A DNA stretch of 64,000 nt from Escherichia coli (GTDB taxonomy: Bacteria > Pseudomonadota > Gammaproteobacteria > Enterobacterales > Enterobacteriaceae). A program made the position numbers. Positions within the stretch are counted from its first letter, which is position 1. Each line of letters opens with the position of its first letter. The DNA is taken from NCBI RefSeq assembly GCF_016903815.1, contig NZ_CP069973.1. The stretch is one strand, 5' to 3'. Of the stretch, positions 27,601 through 33,600 are shown one piece after another.

Positions 27601-30600
27601 TTCTGCTTTGTGGTGCTCTGACGCTGACCTTTGCATCCGCGCTTGAGTATGTCGGATGGCCTAAATCACTTTCTGTTGCCATTGGTGGTGGGGTGGGGCT
27701 GATTGGTGTTGATGCTATTCGTGGTGCGGCAATGAGGGTCATCGGTAACAAGTTCGGTGCCCATAAGGAGTAATTAATGCAGACACTTAATTCCCAGCGT
27801 AAAGCTTTCCTTGATATGGTGGCATGGTCAGAAGGAACAGATAACGGACGGCAGAAAACCAGAAATCACGGTTATGATGTTATTGTCGGTGGCGAACTGT
27901 TCACTGATTACTCCGATCACCCCCGCAAACTTGTCACGCTAAATCCGAAACTCAAATCAACAGCCGCTGGACGTTACCAGCTTCTTTCACGCTGGTGGGA
28001 TGCCTACCGCAAGCAACTTGGCCTGAAAGATTTTTCTCCAGAAAGTCAGGATGCTGTAGCGCTGCAGCAGATTAAAGAGCGTGGCGCTTTGCCGATGATT
28101 GATCGCGGTGATATCCGTCAGACTATCGACCGTTGCAGCAATATATGGGCTTCACTGCCGGGCGCTGGTTATGGTCAGTTCGAGCATAAGGCTGACAGTC
28201 TGATTGCAAAATTCAAAGAAGCTGGCGGAACGGTCAGAGAGATTGAGGTATGAGCAGAGTAACCGCGATTATCTCCGCTCTGGTTATCTGCATCGTCGTC
28301 TGCCTGTCATGGGGTGTTAATCATTACCGTGATAACGCCATCGCCTACAAAGAACAGCGCGACAAAAATGCCAGAGAACTGAAGCTGGCGAACGCGGCAA
28401 TTACTGACATGCAGATGCGTCAGCGTGATGTTGCTGCGCTCGATGCAAAATACACGAAGGAGTTAGCTGATGCGAAAGCTGAAAATGATGCTCTGCGTGA
28501 TGATGTTGCCGCTGGTCGTCGTCGGTTGCACATCAAAGCAGTCTGTCAGTCAGTGCGTGAAGCCACCACCGCCTCCGGCGTGGATAATGCAGCCTCCCCC
28601 CGACTGGCAGACACCGCTGAACGGGATTATTTCACCCTCCGGGAACGACTGGTAATGATGCAGGCCCAACTTGAAGGTGCTCAGCAATACATAACCGAGC
28701 AGTGTTTAAAGTAAAATCTTAACTACAATATGATTCATTTTGATGATTGTTTCATAAGGAACAGTGAAGTAAGATCTAAGAGGAGTTAAATTTTATACAG
28801 TATAATCATAATATTGCAGCAAGGTGGTTATAATTGAAAGAATATTTAGATATGAATACATCTCATGTAAGAGTTGTTACTCATATGTGTGGGTTCCTGG
28901 TTTGGCTCTATAGTCTTTCAATGTTGCCACCAATGGTTGTAGCATTGTTTTATAAAGAAAAAAGCCTGTTCGTTTTCTTTATAACTTTCGTTATATTTTT
29001 TTGCATTGGTGGCGGAGCGTGGTATACAACTAAGAAATCTGGCATTCAATTACGTACCCGTGATGGGTTTATTATAATTGTAATGTTTTGGATTTTGTTT
29101 TCTGTTATTAGTGCATTCCCTTTATGGATTGACTCAGAACTTAATTTAACGTTCATTGATGCTCTGTTTGAAGGGGTTTCTGGAATAACAACAACAGGAG
29201 CAACTGTAATTGATGATGTTAGTTCATTACCTCGGGCATATTTGTACTATCGGTCACAGTTAAATTTTATAGGTGGTTTAGGAGTTATTGTTCTGGCGGT
29301 TGCTGTATTGCCATTATTGGGTATTGGTGGTGCAAAGCTTTATCAGTCAGAAATGCCGGGGCCATTTAAGGATGACAAACTCACTCCCCGCCTGGCCGAT
29401 ACGTCACGGACACTGTGGATAACTTATTCTTTATTAGGTATTGCTTGTATTGTCTGTTATAGACTTGCAGGAATGCCTTTGTTTGATGCTATTTGTCACG
29501 GGATTTCCACAGTTTCGCTTGGTGGTTTCTCAACTCATAGCGAGAGTATCGGATATTTTAATAACTATTTGGTTGAGCTGGTGGCTGGTTCTTTTTCCCT
29601 GCTATCGGCTTTCAACTTCACTCTTTGGTATATTGTTATTAGCAGGAAAACGATAAAACCTTTAATCAGAGATATTGAACTTCGTTTCTTTCTGTTAATA
29701 GCCTTAGGGGTGATCATTGTTACCTCTTTCCAGGTCTGGCATATAGGTATGTATGACTTGCATGGAAGTTTTATTCATTCGTTTTTTCTTGCCAGCTCCA
29801 TGCTCACTGATAATGGTTTAGCTACGCAGGATTATGCAAGTTGGCCCACGCACACGATAGTGTTTTTGCTGTTGTCAAGTTTCTTTGGGGGATGTATAGG
29901 TTCAACTTGTGGTGGAATTAAGTCACTTCGATTTCTTATACTTTTCAAACAAAGCAAACACGAGATAAATCAGCTTTCTCATCCCAGAGCGTTGTTGAGT
30001 GTAAATGTAGGAGGGAAGATAGTTACAGATCGTGTAATGAGGTCTGTATGGAGTTTCTTTTTTCTTTATACTCTCTTCACGGTGTTTTTTATACTGGTGT
30101 TAAATGGTATGGGATATGATTTTCTTACATCATTTGCAACAGTGGCTGCATGTATTAATAATATGGGATTAGGTTTTGGGGCTACTGCATCGTCATTCGG
30201 AGTGCTTAATGACATTGCAAAATGTTTAATGTGCATAGCTATGATTCTTGGTCGCCTTGAAATTTATCCTGTTATTATATTGTTTTCAGGTTTTTTTTGG
30301 CGCTCCTAATATATGGCTGATTTATAATTGTGAGTTTAATATTATGTTGACTCACTCATTGATCCAATACCTAACTTTACCAGCAACACCTCCGTCCCCA
30401 GTAGCACTGGCTGCTGGGGTGCGTTTTATTCATAAAGCAAGGCTGTATGAGCGAGAAATTAAAGATAGTCTATCGCCCATTACAAGAATTGTCACCGTAT
30501 GCGCACAACGCCAGGACGCACAGTACTGAGCAGGTGGCACAACTGGTAGAAAGTATTAAGCAATTCGGCTGGACTAATCCGGTGCTGATTGACGAAAAGG

Positions 30601-33600
30601 GCGAAATTATTGCGGGTCACGGTCGTGTTATGGCGGCTGAAATGCTCAAAATGGATTCTGTTCCGGTCATTGTTCTGTCTGGCCTGACGGATGAGCAGAA
30701 AAAGGCGTACCGCCTGGCAGATAATCGCCTGCCGATGAATGCTGGCTGGGATGAAGATCTGTTGCGGATGGAGCTGTCGGACCTAATCAATGCTGATTTT
30801 GATGTCTCCCTGACAGGCTTCATCCCGACAGAAATTGATGAACTGTTGACGGATGTTTTGCCCGGTACAGGAAATGAGGAGGAGCCGTATACGACGAAAA
30901 TTGATACGCCTGTTTATGAGCCGTCGGGCGGTAAACCGGATATCAGTGAACTGTACGACGATACGAAAACTCAGGAGCTGATCAGCCGGATACGTTCGGC
31001 GTCCCTTGAGCCTGATATTGAGAAATTCCTCCTGTGTGCGGCAGAACGTCACACGGTGTTTAATTTCAGCAGAATTGCGGACTATTACGCTCACGCCCCC
31101 TCTGAAATTCAGTGTTTTTTCGAGGAGTCGGCGCTGGTGATCATTGATTATCAGCAGGCTATTGAAAATGGATTTGTCCGGATGACGCAGCGCATGGTGG
31201 AGATCATGCATGGTGGTGAGGAGGAGGAATATGCGTGATGATTTTTGCGCCTTTATTCTGACTCACGGGCGACCGGACAAAGTTCTGACTTACCGGACGT
31301 TGCGTCGTGCTGGCTATACCGGGAAAATTTTTATCGTTGTTGATGATGAAGATAAGACACGGCATCAGTACATGGCTGAATTTGGGGAACAGGTGCTGGT
31401 GTTTTCCAAAGCCGATATCGCCAGTCGTTTTGACGAAGCCGATAATTTCTGTGACCGCCGCTCAATTTTTTACGCCCGTAATGCCTGTTTCGACCTGGCA
31501 AAACTGGTCGGGTGTAAATACTTCATTCAGCTCGATGATGATTATCACGAGTTCCAGTTTCGGGTGGATCGCAACTATGACCAGGCCTATTTTCCGATAA
31601 GGAAACTGGATGCGATCCTTTCTGAAATGCTGGCGTACTACGAATCAATACCTGCTCTTTCCATCGCTATGTCGCAGGGCGGGGATTTTCTTGGTGACAA
31701 TGGCGGCCATGCTTCGTGGGTGAAACGCAAGGCAATGAACAGCTTTATCTGTTCGGTTGAACGACCGTTCTCATTCATGGGGCGCATTAACGAGGATGTG
31801 AATACGTACACGAATCTCGGTCGCTGTGGTGAATTGTTTATGACGATCGGTGCTGTCCAGTTAGGGCAGAAACAGACGCAGAAAAACAGCGGCGGAATGA
31901 CCGAGCTGTATCTGGATTCCGGAACCTACGTTAAAAGTTTTTACTCCGTCATGTATGCGCCGTCGTGCGTAAAAATCTCACTGATGGGTGCCAGCCATAA
32001 ACGCATTCACCATCAGGTCACCTGGAACAACGCTGCAGTAAAAATCCTTCACGAAAAATACAGGAAGAAGACACCCTGCATATCAATGGGGGTGACAAAT
32101 GATTCCGTATTCGAAAGTCGAGTCTCTGGCAGCGTGCCGGATGACTGCACAACAAATCGCTGACGTTCTGGATGTTGATCTGAACCGACTGAAAGAAAAT
32201 CGGGAAGCAATGACAGATTTTTATGCGGCCATCCGTAAGGGCAGAGCGAAAGGTGAAGCCGAGTTACGAGCGGCATTGTTTAAGCTTGCCAGAAAAGGGG
32301 ATGCCTTTGCTCTGCGCGAACTACTCAGGGTGGATAAAAATCAGGACTAACTGATGAGCAGACCGGACTGGGGGGCGTTGCAGCAGGAGTATATTGCTGA
32401 ATACACCCGCTCCGGTATATCTCCGGTGGCATGGTGTGAAGCAAGGGGACTGAATTACGCAACAGCCCGTCGTTACATCAAAAAAACTCCGAAAAATGCG
32501 CAGACAGAAATGTGCAAAACTGCGCAAAAAAGTGCGCAGAAAAAATCTGCGCAGACTGCACAAAAGCGGAACGAAAAATCTCAGGAAAAAAAGCCAGTAT
32601 TCGATGCGGGCCTGAATGAGGGCGACGCGGAGGAATTTTCGTTCTGTCCCGATGAATTCGGCATTTCTGACCAGCAGGCTAAGTTTGCGATGCTTGTTGC
32701 TCAGGGTAAAAAGCCGACAGAGGCGTACCGACTAGCCGGTTATGAGGGGCAAGGTGCGACAGCTAATAGCAACGCCAGTCGTATGCTTAGAAATGCCAGG
32801 GTTTTTCGCGCTATCAGCTACTTCCGCAATCAGTACCAGAAACGCTATACCGCAGACCTGGATTTACTAGTGAGTCAGTTGATGGCCATTGTCCTGGCCG
32901 ACCCCAATCAGCTTGCACAATTTCGCCGTGTTAACTGCCGTTATTGCTGGGGCGAGAATCATCTCTACCAGTGGCGCGATATAGCAGAATTCGACAAGGC
33001 AGCGGCGCAGGCTTCCAGAGATGGCAAACCCGAACCGGAATATGGAGGCCTCGGCTTTGTTGATAACGCCATACCCAATCCGGACTGCCCGAAGTGCTGC
33101 GGTGAGGGAACGGGACAGCTTTATATGGCTGATACCACTCTGCTTGATGGGGATGCGCGGCAATTATATGCAGGGGCAAAATTCGGAAAATTCGGCGTTG
33201 AGATCCTGCTGGAGGATAAGGCTGCCGCCCGGCGTGAATTGTTGCGTTTGCTTTCTGCTGGCGGGGCTTTATGTGCAGATAAGCGGCTACAGGAACTGGA
33301 AATTGAACGGCGCAGAATGGAAAACCAGAAGCTGCGCAAAGAGATCGAAACGGTGGAAGATAATGAACATCCCCAGCCTGTGGCGATCAATATTAATGTG
33401 GTTGATGCCAGAGTAAGGAGTGATGAAGATGATCTCTCCGACGCTTAATGTGCCTCAGGCGCGATTTCTTTCAATGCCCCATAAATTTAAAGCCTATATT
33501 GCTGGTTTTGGCTCGGGCAAAACATGGGTTGGGTGTGGCGGCATATGCAAGGGGATTTGGGAGCATCCAGGTATAAATCAGGGATATTTTGCGCCAACGT

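What the first reader, a model, noticed from the sequence alone, without database searches (positions are those of the whole stretch)
30447..32163. ParB-like nuclease protein plus YdaY-like protein of unknown function immediately upstream of the packaging genes
In K-12 Rac these genes are truncated remnants (ynaK, ydaY); here both are full length and translationally linked. ParB/Srx-like domains in phages are often associated with DNA modification, partition-like or anti-defence functions, and the partner protein is uncharacterised. The pair is a candidate accessory module rather than core morphogenesis.
Basis: inference. Interest (0 to 1): 0.45.

Follow-up and report, generated by a model that had tools for sequence, protein, structure and literature searches.

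The report
Phage glycosyltransferase with ParB-like partner
Two overlapping late genes of a Rac-like E. coli prophage encode a sugar-transferring enzyme of the phage DNA-glycosylating family and an obligatory partner protein, a pair found just before the DNA-packaging genes of viruses of bacteria and archaea, yet with no enzyme to make the hydroxymethyl base such enzymes normally decorate.

Summary
Both genes are real, full length and translationally coupled: ORF1 is 30447-31238, and the second gene runs 31231-32163 (ATGcgTGA overlap).

The label "YdaY-like" is wrong. K-12 YdaY has no similarity to gene 2. It matches a tail-region ORF at 42151-42612. K-12 YnaK is the first 86 residues of ORF1.

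Gene 2 is a GT-A-fold glycosyltransferase of the TAGT family (PF20691), with an invariant DDD motif.

ORF1 is a ParB/Srx nucleotide-binding domain plus an unannotated, acidic C-terminal domain (CTD) of about 110 residues.

In 245 of 245 glycosyltransferase-seeded viral loci, a CTD gene lies directly upstream. 31 of these lack the ParB domain, so the CTD is the obligatory partner. In 78 of 78 CTD-seeded loci the glycosyltransferase follows. In 7 of them one phosphatase-nucleotidyltransferase gene lies between the two.

An AlphaFold2 model of a fused CTD-glycosyltransferase chain gives pTM 0.84. dN/dS is 0.07-0.14.

The pair sits upstream of at least four terminase families, in phages of Proteobacteria, Firmicutes, Actinobacteria and Bacteroidota and in a haloarchaeal virus. 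No TET/JBP or thymidylate-synthase-like gene accompanies it.

Best reading (about 0.45): a late-expressed two-subunit DNA glycosylation module that acts before packaging. The acceptor is unknown. This is a new variant of a known kind.

The parts
30396..30419 (+). Terminator-like GC-rich hairpin with a T-run, just after trkG and 27 nt before the ORF1 start. It probably insulates the pair from trkG transcription in the lysogen, and late (Q-antiterminated) transcripts would read through it.
   Evidence: 10-bp stem, 7 GC pairs, tail TGCGTTTTAT. Q-like antiterminator at 25631-26290. The read-through is an inference.
30447..31238 (+). ORF1, 263 aa, the partner subunit. It has a ParB/Srx nucleotide-binding domain (about aa 1-100), an acidic helical middle region (aa 101-145) and a C-terminal domain (aa 146-263).
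30447..30746 (+). ParB/Srx N-terminal (NTP-binding) domain. Conserved residues are N21, R23, G57-x-x-R60 (GHGR), D92 and N93. It belongs to the same subfamily as the ParB domain fused to phage DNA methyltransferases.
   Evidence: PF02195. phrog_498 (E 9e-51) and PADLOC MTase_II (E 1.5e-38) match the N-terminal part only. Conservation counts. Alignment to Spo0J/ParB structures.
30882..31235 (+). C-terminal domain (CTD), the obligatory partner of the glycosyltransferase. It consists of an extended motif, Y148-T-x-K-I-x-x-P-x-Y157-E-P, followed by a helical bundle (FLxxAAxRHTVF..IADYYAHA..SALVIIDxxxAIENG). It has no Pfam family and no structural match.
31218..31227 (+). Shine-Dalgarno-like GAGGAGGAGG inside the end of ORF1, serving the start of the glycosyltransferase gene.
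   Evidence: sequence
31231..32163 (+). Glycosyltransferase gene, 310 aa. TAGT family, GT-A fold. R14, D102-D103-D104, QGGD, RKAMN, NEDVN and HH260-261 are conserved. The last 22 or so residues are lineage-specific and overlap the next gene.
32141..32350 (+). Small protein matching part of a small-terminase PHROG. It is the first gene of the packaging block and marks the downstream boundary of the module.
   Evidence: (phrog_309, E 8e-23)
32354..34730 (+). Small terminase (Terminase_2) and large terminase (Terminase_6N/6C). These are context, not part of the module.

Best explanation
**What it is.** A self-contained, late-expressed, two-subunit glycosylation module.
- Gene 2 is the catalytic subunit, a metal-dependent GT-A glycosyltransferase of the TAGT family. 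That family includes the phage enzymes that put sugars on 5hmC/5hmU in DNA, the T2/T6 second-glucose transferase and trypanosome JGT.
- ORF1 is its obligatory partner. Its C-terminal domain docks on the enzyme. Its N-terminal ParB/Srx NTP-binding domain is of the same subtype that phages fuse to DNA methyltransferases.

**How it most likely works.**
- The ParB/Srx domain loads or activates the enzyme on double-stranded DNA. A ParB-like protein was recently shown to do this for phage thymine dioxygenases.
- The pair is translated from the start of the late operon, just ahead of terminase.
- Replicated phage DNA would therefore be glycosylated shortly before packaging and protected from nucleases in the next host.

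**Shown here:** family membership, fold, catalytic motif, obligatory pairing, purifying selection and conserved position.

**Inferred:** the physical complex (from AlphaFold2 confidence only), DNA as the target, the timing, and the anti-restriction benefit.

**Unknown:** the acceptor. No phage gene here makes a hydroxymethyl-pyrimidine.
For: **Family and fold**
- PF20691 TAGT, E 1.2e-34, 120 bits against a cut-off of 27.5; phrog_842, E 1.7e-103.
- GT-A fold: Foldseek hits to ThuS/SunS, SpsA, K4CP, AvpGT and TarS. The best viral hits are TAGT-domain proteins, target-normalised TM-score (TMt) up to 0.84.
- R14, DDD102-104 and NEDVN187-191 are invariant from E. coli phages to a haloarchaeal virus.

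**Pairing**
- A CTD-bearing gene lies immediately upstream in 245/245 loci seeded with the glycosyltransferase: 206 with the ParB domain, 31 CTD only, 8 cut by the contig end.
- In loci seeded with the CTD, the glycosyltransferase is adjacent in 71/78 and one gene away in 7/78.
- In the annotated phages the stop and start overlap.

**Predicted complex**
- A fused CTD + linker + glycosyltransferase model built on 39 paired sequences gives pTM 0.84.
- The YTxKIxxPxYEP motif rises from pLDDT 60-83 (CTD alone) to 85-95, and a new beta-strand appears at VIID.

**Selection**
- dN/dS is 0.08 for the ParB domain, 0.14 for the CTD and 0.07 for the glycosyltransferase.

**Link to DNA**
- The ParB domain matches the N-terminus of ParB-methyltransferase fusions (phrog_498, E 9e-51; PADLOC MTase_II, E 1.5e-38).
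- The GxxR arginine is kept in 144/154 partners.
- ParB activates phage thymine dioxygenase on dsDNA, and glycosyltransferases, ParBs and terminases are the commonest neighbours of 5mYOX genes (PMC13229309).

**Sugar-donor link**
- 7 loci insert a His-phosphatase + RfaE-II/TagD-like nucleotidyltransferase gene between the pair.

**Late position**
- The pair lies upstream of terminases of at least 4 TerL families and downstream of a Q-like antiterminator.
Against: - No TET/JBP, dCMP/dUMP hydroxymethylase or thymidylate-synthase-like gene was found in the prophage, among neighbours of 45 non-redundant loci, or in the complete 31.8-kb genome of phage c5. The usual acceptor of this enzyme family is therefore absent.
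- No DNA glycosyltransferase is known to act on canonical bases (my own knowledge).
- ORF1 is strongly acidic (pI 4.5; CTD 4.45) and has no HTH domain, so it is not an obvious DNA binder.
- 31 loci lack the ParB domain altogether, which weakens the DNA argument for those.
- GREB1, a eukaryotic relative, is reported to glycosylate a protein (my own knowledge).
- The complex is inferred from pTM and pLDDT only. No coordinates or PAE could be inspected.
Confidence: 0.45

Rival explanations
1. Protein glycosylation. The enzyme glycosylates a protein: a virion component, a terminase or portal component, or the partner itself on its invariant tyrosine in the YEP motif. The CTD would present the substrate or be the substrate.
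For: - Late position next to structural and packaging genes.
- The invariant Y157, in an extended peptide, becomes ordered only in the fused model.
- The partner is acidic and lacks a DNA-binding domain.
- CTD-only partners exist.
- Distant GT-A structural neighbours include peptide S-glycosyltransferases (ThuS/SunS) and glycogenin.
- The GREB1 relative is reported as a protein O-GlcNAc transferase, and mycobacteriophage glycosyltransferases decorate capsids (my own knowledge).
Against: - 84% of partners (206 of 245) carry a ParB/Srx domain of the subtype fused to DNA methyltransferases. That is hard to explain for a protein target.
- The neighbouring virion and terminase proteins belong to unrelated families, while the glycosyltransferase keeps 42-47% identity across domains of life. 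That argues for a universal substrate such as DNA.
- Phage members of the family characterised so far act on DNA (PMC13216743; 10.1101/2023.12.21.572611).
Confidence: 0.2
2. Dependent remnant. The pair descends from ParB-5mYOX-GT operons and still needs a hydroxymethyl-pyrimidine (5hmU/5hmC) supplied by something else, such as a co-infecting phage, an undetected divergent dioxygenase or damage products. Alternatively it is functionally decaying.
For: - The family is named for its association with TET/JBP.
- ParB, glycosyltransferase and terminase are the commonest neighbours of phage 5mYOX genes.
- Thousands of 5mYOX-like sequences escape the Pfam model.
- Some copies are split or deleted.
Against: - 0 of 245 + 78 loci have a gene of dioxygenase size between or beside the pair.
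- Purifying selection is strong, with dN/dS about 0.07-0.14.
- The CTD family has 1,424 clusters at 50% identity.
- Small, completely sequenced phages carry the pair but no candidate hydroxylase.
Confidence: 0.12
3. Small-molecule or nucleotide target. The complex glycosylates or sequesters a nucleotide-derived molecule, for instance an immune signalling nucleotide or an NDP-sugar pool. The ParB/Srx domain would be the nucleotide-binding part. This would be an anti-defence role unrelated to DNA modification.
For: - ParB/Srx folds bind various NTPs and include small-molecule kinases (10.1101/2025.10.10.680097).
- One structural neighbour, AvpGT, glycosylates a nucleoside.
- Some loci add a nucleotidyltransferase-phosphatase gene.
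Against: - There is no hit in PADLOC for the glycosyltransferase, and no known anti-defence family was matched.
- Late expression ahead of terminase is a poor time to counter early immunity.
- The inserted gene is explained more simply as synthesis of the sugar donor.
Confidence: 0.08
4. Packaging or partition role. ORF1 acts as a ParB-like pac-site, centromere or nuclease factor for terminase, and the glycosyltransferase is incidental.
For: - Constant position next to terminase.
- In NTR1 no small-terminase gene is annotated between the pair and TerL.
Against: - ORF1 has no HTH or parS-binding domain, and TIGR00180 scores 38 against a cut-off of 58.
- No ParA is present.
- The ParB domain is dispensable in 31 loci, while the glycosyltransferase never is.
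- The module is absent from most relatives of these phages and was lost in K-12 and in other E. coli genomes.
- In the Vibrio phages it sits next to a helicase, not a terminase.
Confidence: 0.05

Closest known systems
TAGT-family phage DNA glycosyltransferases (PF20691): 5mYOX/TET-associated GT-A enzymes (Burke 2021, PMC8256090; bioRxiv 10.1101/2023.12.21.572611) and trypanosome JGT
   Same: - Pfam family match well above the cut-off.
- GT-A fold.
- R...DDD...(E/D)D active-site pattern.
- Phage context, often near ParB and terminase genes.
   Different: - No dioxygenase or methyltransferase is present to create the 5hmC/5hmU acceptor.
- An obligatory partner domain (the CTD) is present that is not described for those enzymes.
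- The third motif reads NEDVN rather than EDY/F.
ParB-dependent phage thymine dioxygenases (5mYOX176/ParB176; O'Toole et al. 2026, PMC13229309)
   Same: - A ParB-like protein with a nucleotide-binding domain, a linker and a C-terminal domain, but no DNA-binding domain.
- It is encoded next to a DNA-modifying enzyme and is needed for that enzyme's action on dsDNA.
- The NTP-binding residues are conserved.
   Different: - The client enzyme here is a glycosyltransferase, not a dioxygenase.
- Whether the two C-terminal domains are homologous was not tested.
- Here the ParB domain can be missing while the C-terminal domain is always kept.
T2/T6 beta-glucosyl-HMC-alpha-glucosyltransferase (the name PHROGs and RefSeq give to gene 2)
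   Same: Same Pfam family and the same PHROG (remote-homology cluster).
   Different: - tblastn at E<=1e-5 retrieved no record attributable to T2, T6 or another T-even phage by organism name or size.
- The host phage makes no hmC and has no alpha- or beta-glucosyltransferase.
- The label is an over-transferred name.
Phage ParB-DNA methyltransferase fusions (phrog_498; ParB-N6_N4_Mtase fusions in 10.1101/2025.10.10.680097)
   Same: - The ParB/Srx domain of ORF1 is closest to this subtype (E 9e-51).
- Same logic: a ParB domain joined to a DNA-modifying enzyme, enriched in prophages.
   Different: - Here the enzyme is a separate polypeptide, held through an adaptor domain.
- It transfers a sugar, not a methyl group.
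Phage Mu Mom
   Same: By analogy only: a late-expressed, post-replicative modification of phage DNA made just before packaging, acting on a canonical base.
   Different: Unrelated protein family (acyltransferase fold), different chemistry, and no partner protein.

Membership tests
TAGT (PF20691, TET-associated glycosyltransferase) | Sequence match to the family model above the curated cut-off | tested here: met
   120.4 bits against a cut-off of 27.5, E 1.2e-34, covering aa 15-229. UniRef and PGAP name close homologues TAGT/GREB1-related.
TAGT (PF20691, TET-associated glycosyltransferase) | GT-A fold with an acidic DxD-type metal and nucleotide-sugar site | tested here: met
   AlphaFold2 model with pLDDT mostly above 90 in the glycosyltransferase part. 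Foldseek hits to GT-A/GT2 enzymes and to viral TAGT models, target-normalised TM-score (TMt) 0.84. D102-D103-D104 are invariant.
TAGT (PF20691, TET-associated glycosyltransferase) | Genomic association with a TET/JBP (5mYOX) dioxygenase or another source of a hydroxymethyl-pyrimidine | tested here: not met
   None in the PGAP annotation of the prophage, in Pfam scans of early-region ORFs, among neighbours of 45 non-redundant loci or in the complete phage c5 genome.
TAGT (PF20691, TET-associated glycosyltransferase) | Transfers a sugar to a base (or to a sugar on a base) in DNA | not testable with these tools
   Needs biochemistry or nucleoside mass spectrometry.
ParB/Srx N-terminal domain (PF02195) | Match to the domain model and a conserved GxxR phosphate-binding motif | tested here: met
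   29.3 bits against a cut-off of 26.3. Aligns to Spo0J/ParB structures 1vz0 and 4umk. G57 is kept in 154/154 and R60 in 144/154 partners.
Canonical partition ParB (TIGR00180; ParABS) | HTH parS-binding domain, a ParA partner, and a full-length family score | tested here: not met
   TIGR00180 scores 38.1 against a cut-off of 58.45, over the N-terminal domain only. No HTH Pfam hit. No parA in the prophage.
   No HNH or other nuclease domain was detected. 'Nuclease' is a legacy name for PF02195.
ParB-dependent 5mYOX systems (PMC13229309) | A ParB-like activator (nucleotide-binding domain plus C-terminal domain, no DNA-binding domain) next to its client enzyme | tested here: met
   Architecture. 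Adjacency in 245/245 loci.
ParB-dependent 5mYOX systems (PMC13229309) | The client is a 5-methylpyrimidine dioxygenase | tested here: not met
   The client is a glycosyltransferase, and no dioxygenase is present.
T-even beta-glucosyl-HMC-alpha-glucosyltransferase | Close similarity to the T2/T6 enzyme and the presence of an hmC pathway with alpha-glucosyltransferase | tested here: not met
   No record attributable to T2, T6 or another T-even phage by organism name or size among the 36 phage records at E<=1e-5. No hmC genes in the prophage.
YdaY (E. coli K-12) | Sequence similarity to K-12 YdaY | tested here: not met
   No BLASTP alignment at E<=100. YdaY is 98% identical to window 42151-42612.

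The most novel reading that the evidence does not exclude
The pair is a DNA glycosyltransferase that needs no hydroxymethylated precursor. Helped by its ParB/CTD partner, it would attach a sugar directly to a canonical base or to the backbone of double-stranded phage DNA just before packaging. In some relatives the sugar would be an unusual NDP-activated sugar or polyol made by the inserted phosphatase-nucleotidyltransferase. That would be a new chemical class of DNA modification. It would be present in about 16% of complete E. coli genomes and in viruses of four bacterial phyla and of haloarchaea.
Probability: 0.22. Interest if true: 0.88.

Novelty: new variant of a known kind. Interest (0 to 1): 0.6.

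Why it matters
Phage DNA glycosylation is known to need a hydroxymethyl or hydroxy handle on a pyrimidine.

**Why this module stands out**
- It is an abundant, strongly conserved two-gene module of the same enzyme family, but it carries no handle-making enzyme. 288 of 753 phage genomes with "solitary TAGT" homologues were recently flagged as unexplained (PMC13216743).
- It is full length in 866 of 5,426 complete E. coli genomes and occurs across phages of bacteria and archaea.

**What resolving it would show**
- Either a new acceptor chemistry on DNA, or a new class of phage protein glycosylation.

**What this analysis adds**
- The constant partner is an unannotated domain of about 110 residues, not the ParB domain. 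That changes what should be cloned, mutated and searched for.

**Testability and use**
- The system sits in an inducible Rac-like prophage of E. coli, so it can be tested directly.
- If it modifies DNA, it bears on restriction and CRISPR evasion, on nanopore and SMRT base-calling of prophage DNA, and on enzymatic DNA-labelling tools.

Tried and rejected
- **YdaY homology of gene 2:** rejected.
- **Start codon at 31210:** rejected in favour of 31231, on the Shine-Dalgarno sequence, PGAP's choice and the start of the homologue alignment.
- **Defence-system membership:** PADLOC gives no hit for the glycosyltransferase, and only the ParB part of MTase_II for ORF1.
- **Sequence relatives with solved structures:** none for the glycosyltransferase. 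For the CTD profile, only chance-level hits (best E 0.013).
- **Hidden dioxygenase or hydroxymethylase:** searched in the prophage annotation, in 10 early-region ORFs, in 198 neighbour ORFs of 45 loci and in the full phage c5 genome. None was found. The alignment-based Pfam summaries show only the 25 commonest families, so a single rare occurrence cannot be excluded.
- **Iyer et al. 2013 (the paper that defined TAGT):** could not be read; it is not held. Whether it already drew ParB-TAGT pairs without TET is therefore unknown to me.
- **AFDB fold search (to test closeness to JGT/GREB1):** the library was unavailable.
- **Inspecting the predicted interface:** not possible, because no coordinates or PAE are returned. 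The complex rests on pTM and pLDDT only.
- **Literature on ynaK and ydaY:** only strain-genome notes, with no functional data.

Full report
**1. What is in the sequence**

Two same-strand ORFs fill 30447-32163.

ORF1 (30447-31238, 263 aa):
- It matches the ParB N-terminal domain (PF02195, 29.3 bits against a cut-off of 26.3).
- It matches phrog_620 over its whole length (E 1e-90).

The second ORF:
- The ORF listing starts it at 31210. The start in use is almost certainly ATG 31231.
- GAGGAGGAGG lies at 31218-31227, and the ATG overlaps the ORF1 stop as ATGcgTGA.
- Homologue alignments begin there, and PGAP uses that start.

Downstream come a small protein related to small terminases (32141-32350), TerS (32354-33448), TerL (33420-34730) and the portal gene.

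Upstream lie a Q-like antiterminator (25631-26290), holin, lysozyme and Rz. Next comes the low-GC trkG moron (28834-30309). A strong terminator-like hairpin sits at 30396-30419.

**2. The name is wrong**

- K-12 YnaK (87 aa) is the first 86 residues of ORF1, at 99% identity.
- K-12 YdaY gives no alignment at all to gene 2.
- YdaY is 98% identical to the ORF at window 42151-42612, between the tail tube and tape measure genes.
- In K-12 the DNA match to this region stops after window position 30700, and ynaK abuts ydaY.
- K-12 therefore carries a deletion of about 11.5 kb. It removed the rest of ORF1, all of gene 2, and the terminase, portal, capsid and tail-tube genes.

**3. What gene 2 is**

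- It belongs to the TAGT family (PF20691, "TET-associated glycosyltransferase"; E 1.2e-34, 120 bits against a cut-off of 27.5) and to phrog_842 (E 1.7e-103). PGAP calls it "GREB1-related protein".
- An AlphaFold2 model has pLDDT mostly above 90 in this part.
- Its solved structural neighbours are GT-A/GT2 enzymes: ThuS/SunS, SpsA, K4CP, AvpGT, GpgS and TarS, at E about 1e-5 and at most 15% identity.
- Its closest viral models are TAGT-domain proteins, with target-normalised TM-score up to 0.84.
- No sequence relative has a solved structure.
- These residues are invariant or nearly so from E. coli prophages to a haloarchaeal virus: R14, D102-D103-D104, Q149-G-G-D152, R166-K-A-M-N170, N187-E-D-V-N191, H260-H261 and W265.
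- That fits the R...DDD...ED(Y/F) pattern described for phage GT-A DNA glycosyltransferases and JGT (10.1101/2023.12.21.572611).
- The PHROG/RefSeq label "beta-glucosyl-HMC-alpha-glucosyltransferase" is taken from the T2/T6 enzyme of the same Pfam family (PMC13216743). tblastn retrieved no record attributable to a T-even phage. The label should not be read literally.

**4. What ORF1 is**

*N-terminal ParB/Srx domain (residues 1 to about 100)*
- It aligns to Spo0J/ParB structures.
- Across 156 distinct partners the following are kept: N21 (153/153), R23 (139/153), G57 (154/154), R60 of the GxxR motif (144/154), D92 (150/156) and N93 (154/156).
- It is not a canonical partition ParB. TIGR00180 scores below its cut-off, there is no HTH domain, and there is no ParA.
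- Its closest subtype is the ParB domain fused to phage DNA methyltransferases (phrog_498, E 9e-51; PADLOC MTase_II, E 1.5e-38; both match the N-terminal part only).

*C-terminal domain, CTD (residues about 146-263)*
- It starts with an extended motif, Y148-[T/S]-x-K-[I/V]-x-x-P-x-Y157-E-P-x-x-x-K-P.
- A helical bundle follows, carrying R201, H202, A211, Y214, Q222, E226 and D234. These are 98-100% conserved in 192 sequences.
- ORF1 as a whole is acidic (pI 4.5). The glycosyltransferase is mildly basic (pI 8.5 without its tail).

**5. The pair is inseparable, and the constant partner is the CTD**

*Loci seeded with the glycosyltransferase*
- 245 viral loci were used, with identity to the query from 100% down to about 25%.
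- Every one has a CTD-bearing ORF immediately upstream on the same strand. 206 carry the ParB domain plus the CTD. 31 have a stand-alone CTD protein of 130-150 aa. 8 are cut by the contig end.
- The 191-kb Vibrio phages are an example of the CTD-only form. Their 139-aa upstream protein is 52% identical to ORF1 residues 136-244.

*Loci seeded with the CTD*
- 71 of 78 have the glycosyltransferase directly adjacent.
- The other 7 have exactly one gene in between.
- That gene encodes a fusion of a histidine phosphatase (CobC/PGM-like) and a nucleotidyltransferase closest to RfaE domain II or TagD. The composition suggests it makes a nucleotide-activated sugar or polyol donor. That interpretation is an inference.

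*Size of the CTD family*
- A CTD profile finds 1,424 clusters at 50% identity among 1.84 billion representatives.
- In the 150 best-scoring representatives listed, the CTD lies at or near the C-terminus in all but a few.

**6. Predicted complex**

- The CTD alone folds with pLDDT 78.9. Its N-terminal motif scores only 60-83, and the ALVIID segment is not a strand.
- A single chain was built from the CTD, a 25-residue GS linker and the glycosyltransferase, on an alignment of 39 paired sequences. It gives pTM 0.84 and mean pLDDT 85. The linker scores about 35.
- In that model the motif rises to 85-95, and a new strand appears at VIID.
- A pTM this high across a floppy linker implies a confidently placed heterodimer.
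- This is indirect evidence. Neither coordinates nor PAE could be inspected.

**7. Selection and distribution**

- Against enterobacterial relatives, dN/dS is 0.08 for the ParB domain, 0.14 for the CTD and 0.07 for the glycosyltransferase. It is 0.22 for the linker.
- 1,609 of 5,426 complete E. coli genomes have a match, and 866 have at least 80% of the region. The rest are truncated in various ways, including the K-12 type.
- The same gene order (partner, glycosyltransferase, terminase) occurs in:
  - Lactobacillus gasseri phage phi jlb1;
  - L. delbrueckii phage c5, where the pair forms the first two genes after cos;
  - Nocardia phage NTR1;
  - a Porphyromonas phage, with the glycosyltransferase only 27% identical;
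  - and, with a gap of 3-4 kb before TerL, haloarchaeal virus HHTV-2.
- Among 45 non-redundant loci, only the pair is conserved.
- The next one to three genes are terminases of different families:

| Subunit | Family | Matches among the next 1-3 ORFs |
|---|---|---|
| TerL | Terminase_6N | 21 |
| TerL | Terminase_3 | 11 |
| TerL | GpA | 3 |
| TerL | TerL_ATPase | 3 |
| TerS | Terminase_2 | 10 |
| TerS | Terminase_4 | 3 |
| TerS | GP3_package | 2 |

- Upstream genes are heterogeneous.
- Several L. delbrueckii phages carry split or partial copies, so the module is dispensable.

**8. What is missing**

TAGT enzymes characterised so far add sugar to 5hmC or 5hmU, or to a sugar already on hmC. The precursor comes from a TET/JBP-type dioxygenase or from a dCMP/dUMP hydroxymethylase.

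No such gene was found:
- in this prophage;
- among neighbours of the 45 loci;
- in the complete 31.8-kb genome of phage c5.

A 2026 survey noted 288 of 753 phage genomes with "solitary" TAGT homologues of undefined function (PMC13216743). A 2023 preprint set aside about 65% of contigs bearing GT-A or GT-B glycosyltransferases because they lacked a 5mYOX or ThyS neighbour. The clade studied here belongs to that unexplained set.

**9. How it most likely works**

*Shown here*
- A conserved catalytic GT-A enzyme.
- An obligatory partner domain.
- A frequent ParB/Srx NTP-binding domain of the type fused to DNA methyltransferases.
- A conserved position at the head of the late/packaging operon.
- An occasional in-operon gene for sugar-donor synthesis.

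*From the literature*
- A phage ParB-like protein with a nucleotide-binding domain, a linker and a C-terminal domain, but no DNA-binding domain, activates its cognate thymine dioxygenase specifically on dsDNA. Mutations of its NTP-site residues had little effect (PMC13229309).
- ParB proteins had earlier been proposed to direct modification enzymes to DNA during packaging (PMC8256090).

*Inference*
- The CTD holds the glycosyltransferase.
- The ParB domain, where present, helps it engage dsDNA.
- Late co-translation ensures that replicated DNA is glycosylated just before terminase packages it. Mom does something similar in phage Mu.
- The modification would protect the DNA in the next host.

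I give this reading about 0.45. The acceptor is unknown.

*Rivals*

| Reading | Confidence | Main basis |
|---|---|---|
| Protein target, possibly the invariant Tyr157 of the partner | about 0.2 | Acidic partner; CTD-only forms |
| Dependence on an external hydroxymethyl base | about 0.12 | Descent from ParB-5mYOX-GT operons |
| Small-molecule target | about 0.08 | ParB/Srx folds bind varied NTPs |
| Pure packaging or partition role | about 0.05 | Constant position next to terminase |

**10. Novelty**

- Already known: the enzyme family and the general theme of ParB plus a modification enzyme.
- Not found in the literature I could search:
  - the obligatory, unannotated partner domain;
  - the fact that the ParB domain is optional while the CTD is not;
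  - the strict two-gene architecture without any hydroxylase;
  - the three-gene variant.
- Iyer et al. 2013, which defined TAGT, could not be read, so some of this may have been drawn there.
- I rate it a new variant of a known kind. Interest is 0.6, because it points to a missing acceptor chemistry in a directly testable E. coli prophage.

Noticed in passing
L282 4350-5318; L285 4314-5300; L323 834-1790 (also L286, L299, L304, L324): In 7 of 78 CTD-seeded loci one extra gene lies between the partner and the glycosyltransferase. It encodes a 318-328 aa fusion of a histidine phosphatase (CobC/PGM-like) and an RfaE-domain-II/TagD-like nucleotidyltransferase. This is probably a dedicated NDP-sugar or NDP-polyol donor pathway.
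   Followed up: partly
L165 4459-5888 (Vibrio phage pv27, 191 kb): The glycosyltransferase is preceded by a 139-aa protein that is the CTD alone, with no ParB domain. The pair sits next to a helicase in a replication-gene region, not next to terminase. This is the only context seen away from packaging genes.
   Followed up: partly
L118 6607-8297 (same contig as L236): Two stand-alone CTD genes flank the glycosyltransferase (CTD, glycosyltransferase, CTD). The partner domain is duplicated on both sides of the enzyme.
   Followed up: no
window 30700-42260 compared with L164 (K-12-type strain): The K-12 Rac deletion joins codon 86 of ORF1 to the interior of the full-length ydaY homologue (window 42151-42612, 153 aa). 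About 11.5 kb of glycosyltransferase, terminase, portal, capsid and tail-tube genes are lost. K-12 'YdaY' (119 aa) is therefore itself an N-terminally altered fragment.
   Followed up: yes
window 28834-30309 and 30396-30419: trkG is a low-GC insert (0.33-0.41, against about 0.49 for its neighbours) between the lysis genes and the pair. It has its own strong terminator-like hairpin 27 nt before the ORF1 start.
   Followed up: partly
L001 20148-20405 (NZ_CM132962.1): PGAP annotates the intact, 100%-identical ORF1 as a 258-nt pseudogene fragment called 'ynaK'. The truncated K-12 protein appears to have served as the reference. Other genomes annotate the gene correctly. This is an annotation artefact that hides the full-length gene.
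   Followed up: no
window 32099-32163: The last 22 or so residues of the E. coli glycosyltransferase are absent from homologues in other genera, which are 280-290 aa long. They overlap the start of the next gene (32141, or 32099 by the ORF listing). The tail looks like a lineage-specific read-on rather than part of the enzyme.
   Followed up: partly
phage records KF188410/NC_022762 (phiLdb), KJ564037 (Ld17), AY739900 (LL-Ku), KJ564036 (Ld25A): In several Lactobacillus delbrueckii phages the glycosyltransferase is split into two pieces or reduced to a 45-residue remnant beside the ParB-like gene. The module is decaying in that lineage.
   Followed up: no
window 26515-27084: A 189-aa ORF lies between the Q-like antiterminator and the holin. 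It has no Pfam match, and its sequence looks hydrophobic and membrane-like. A convergent ORF overlaps its end. This is a possible moron of unknown function.
   Followed up: no
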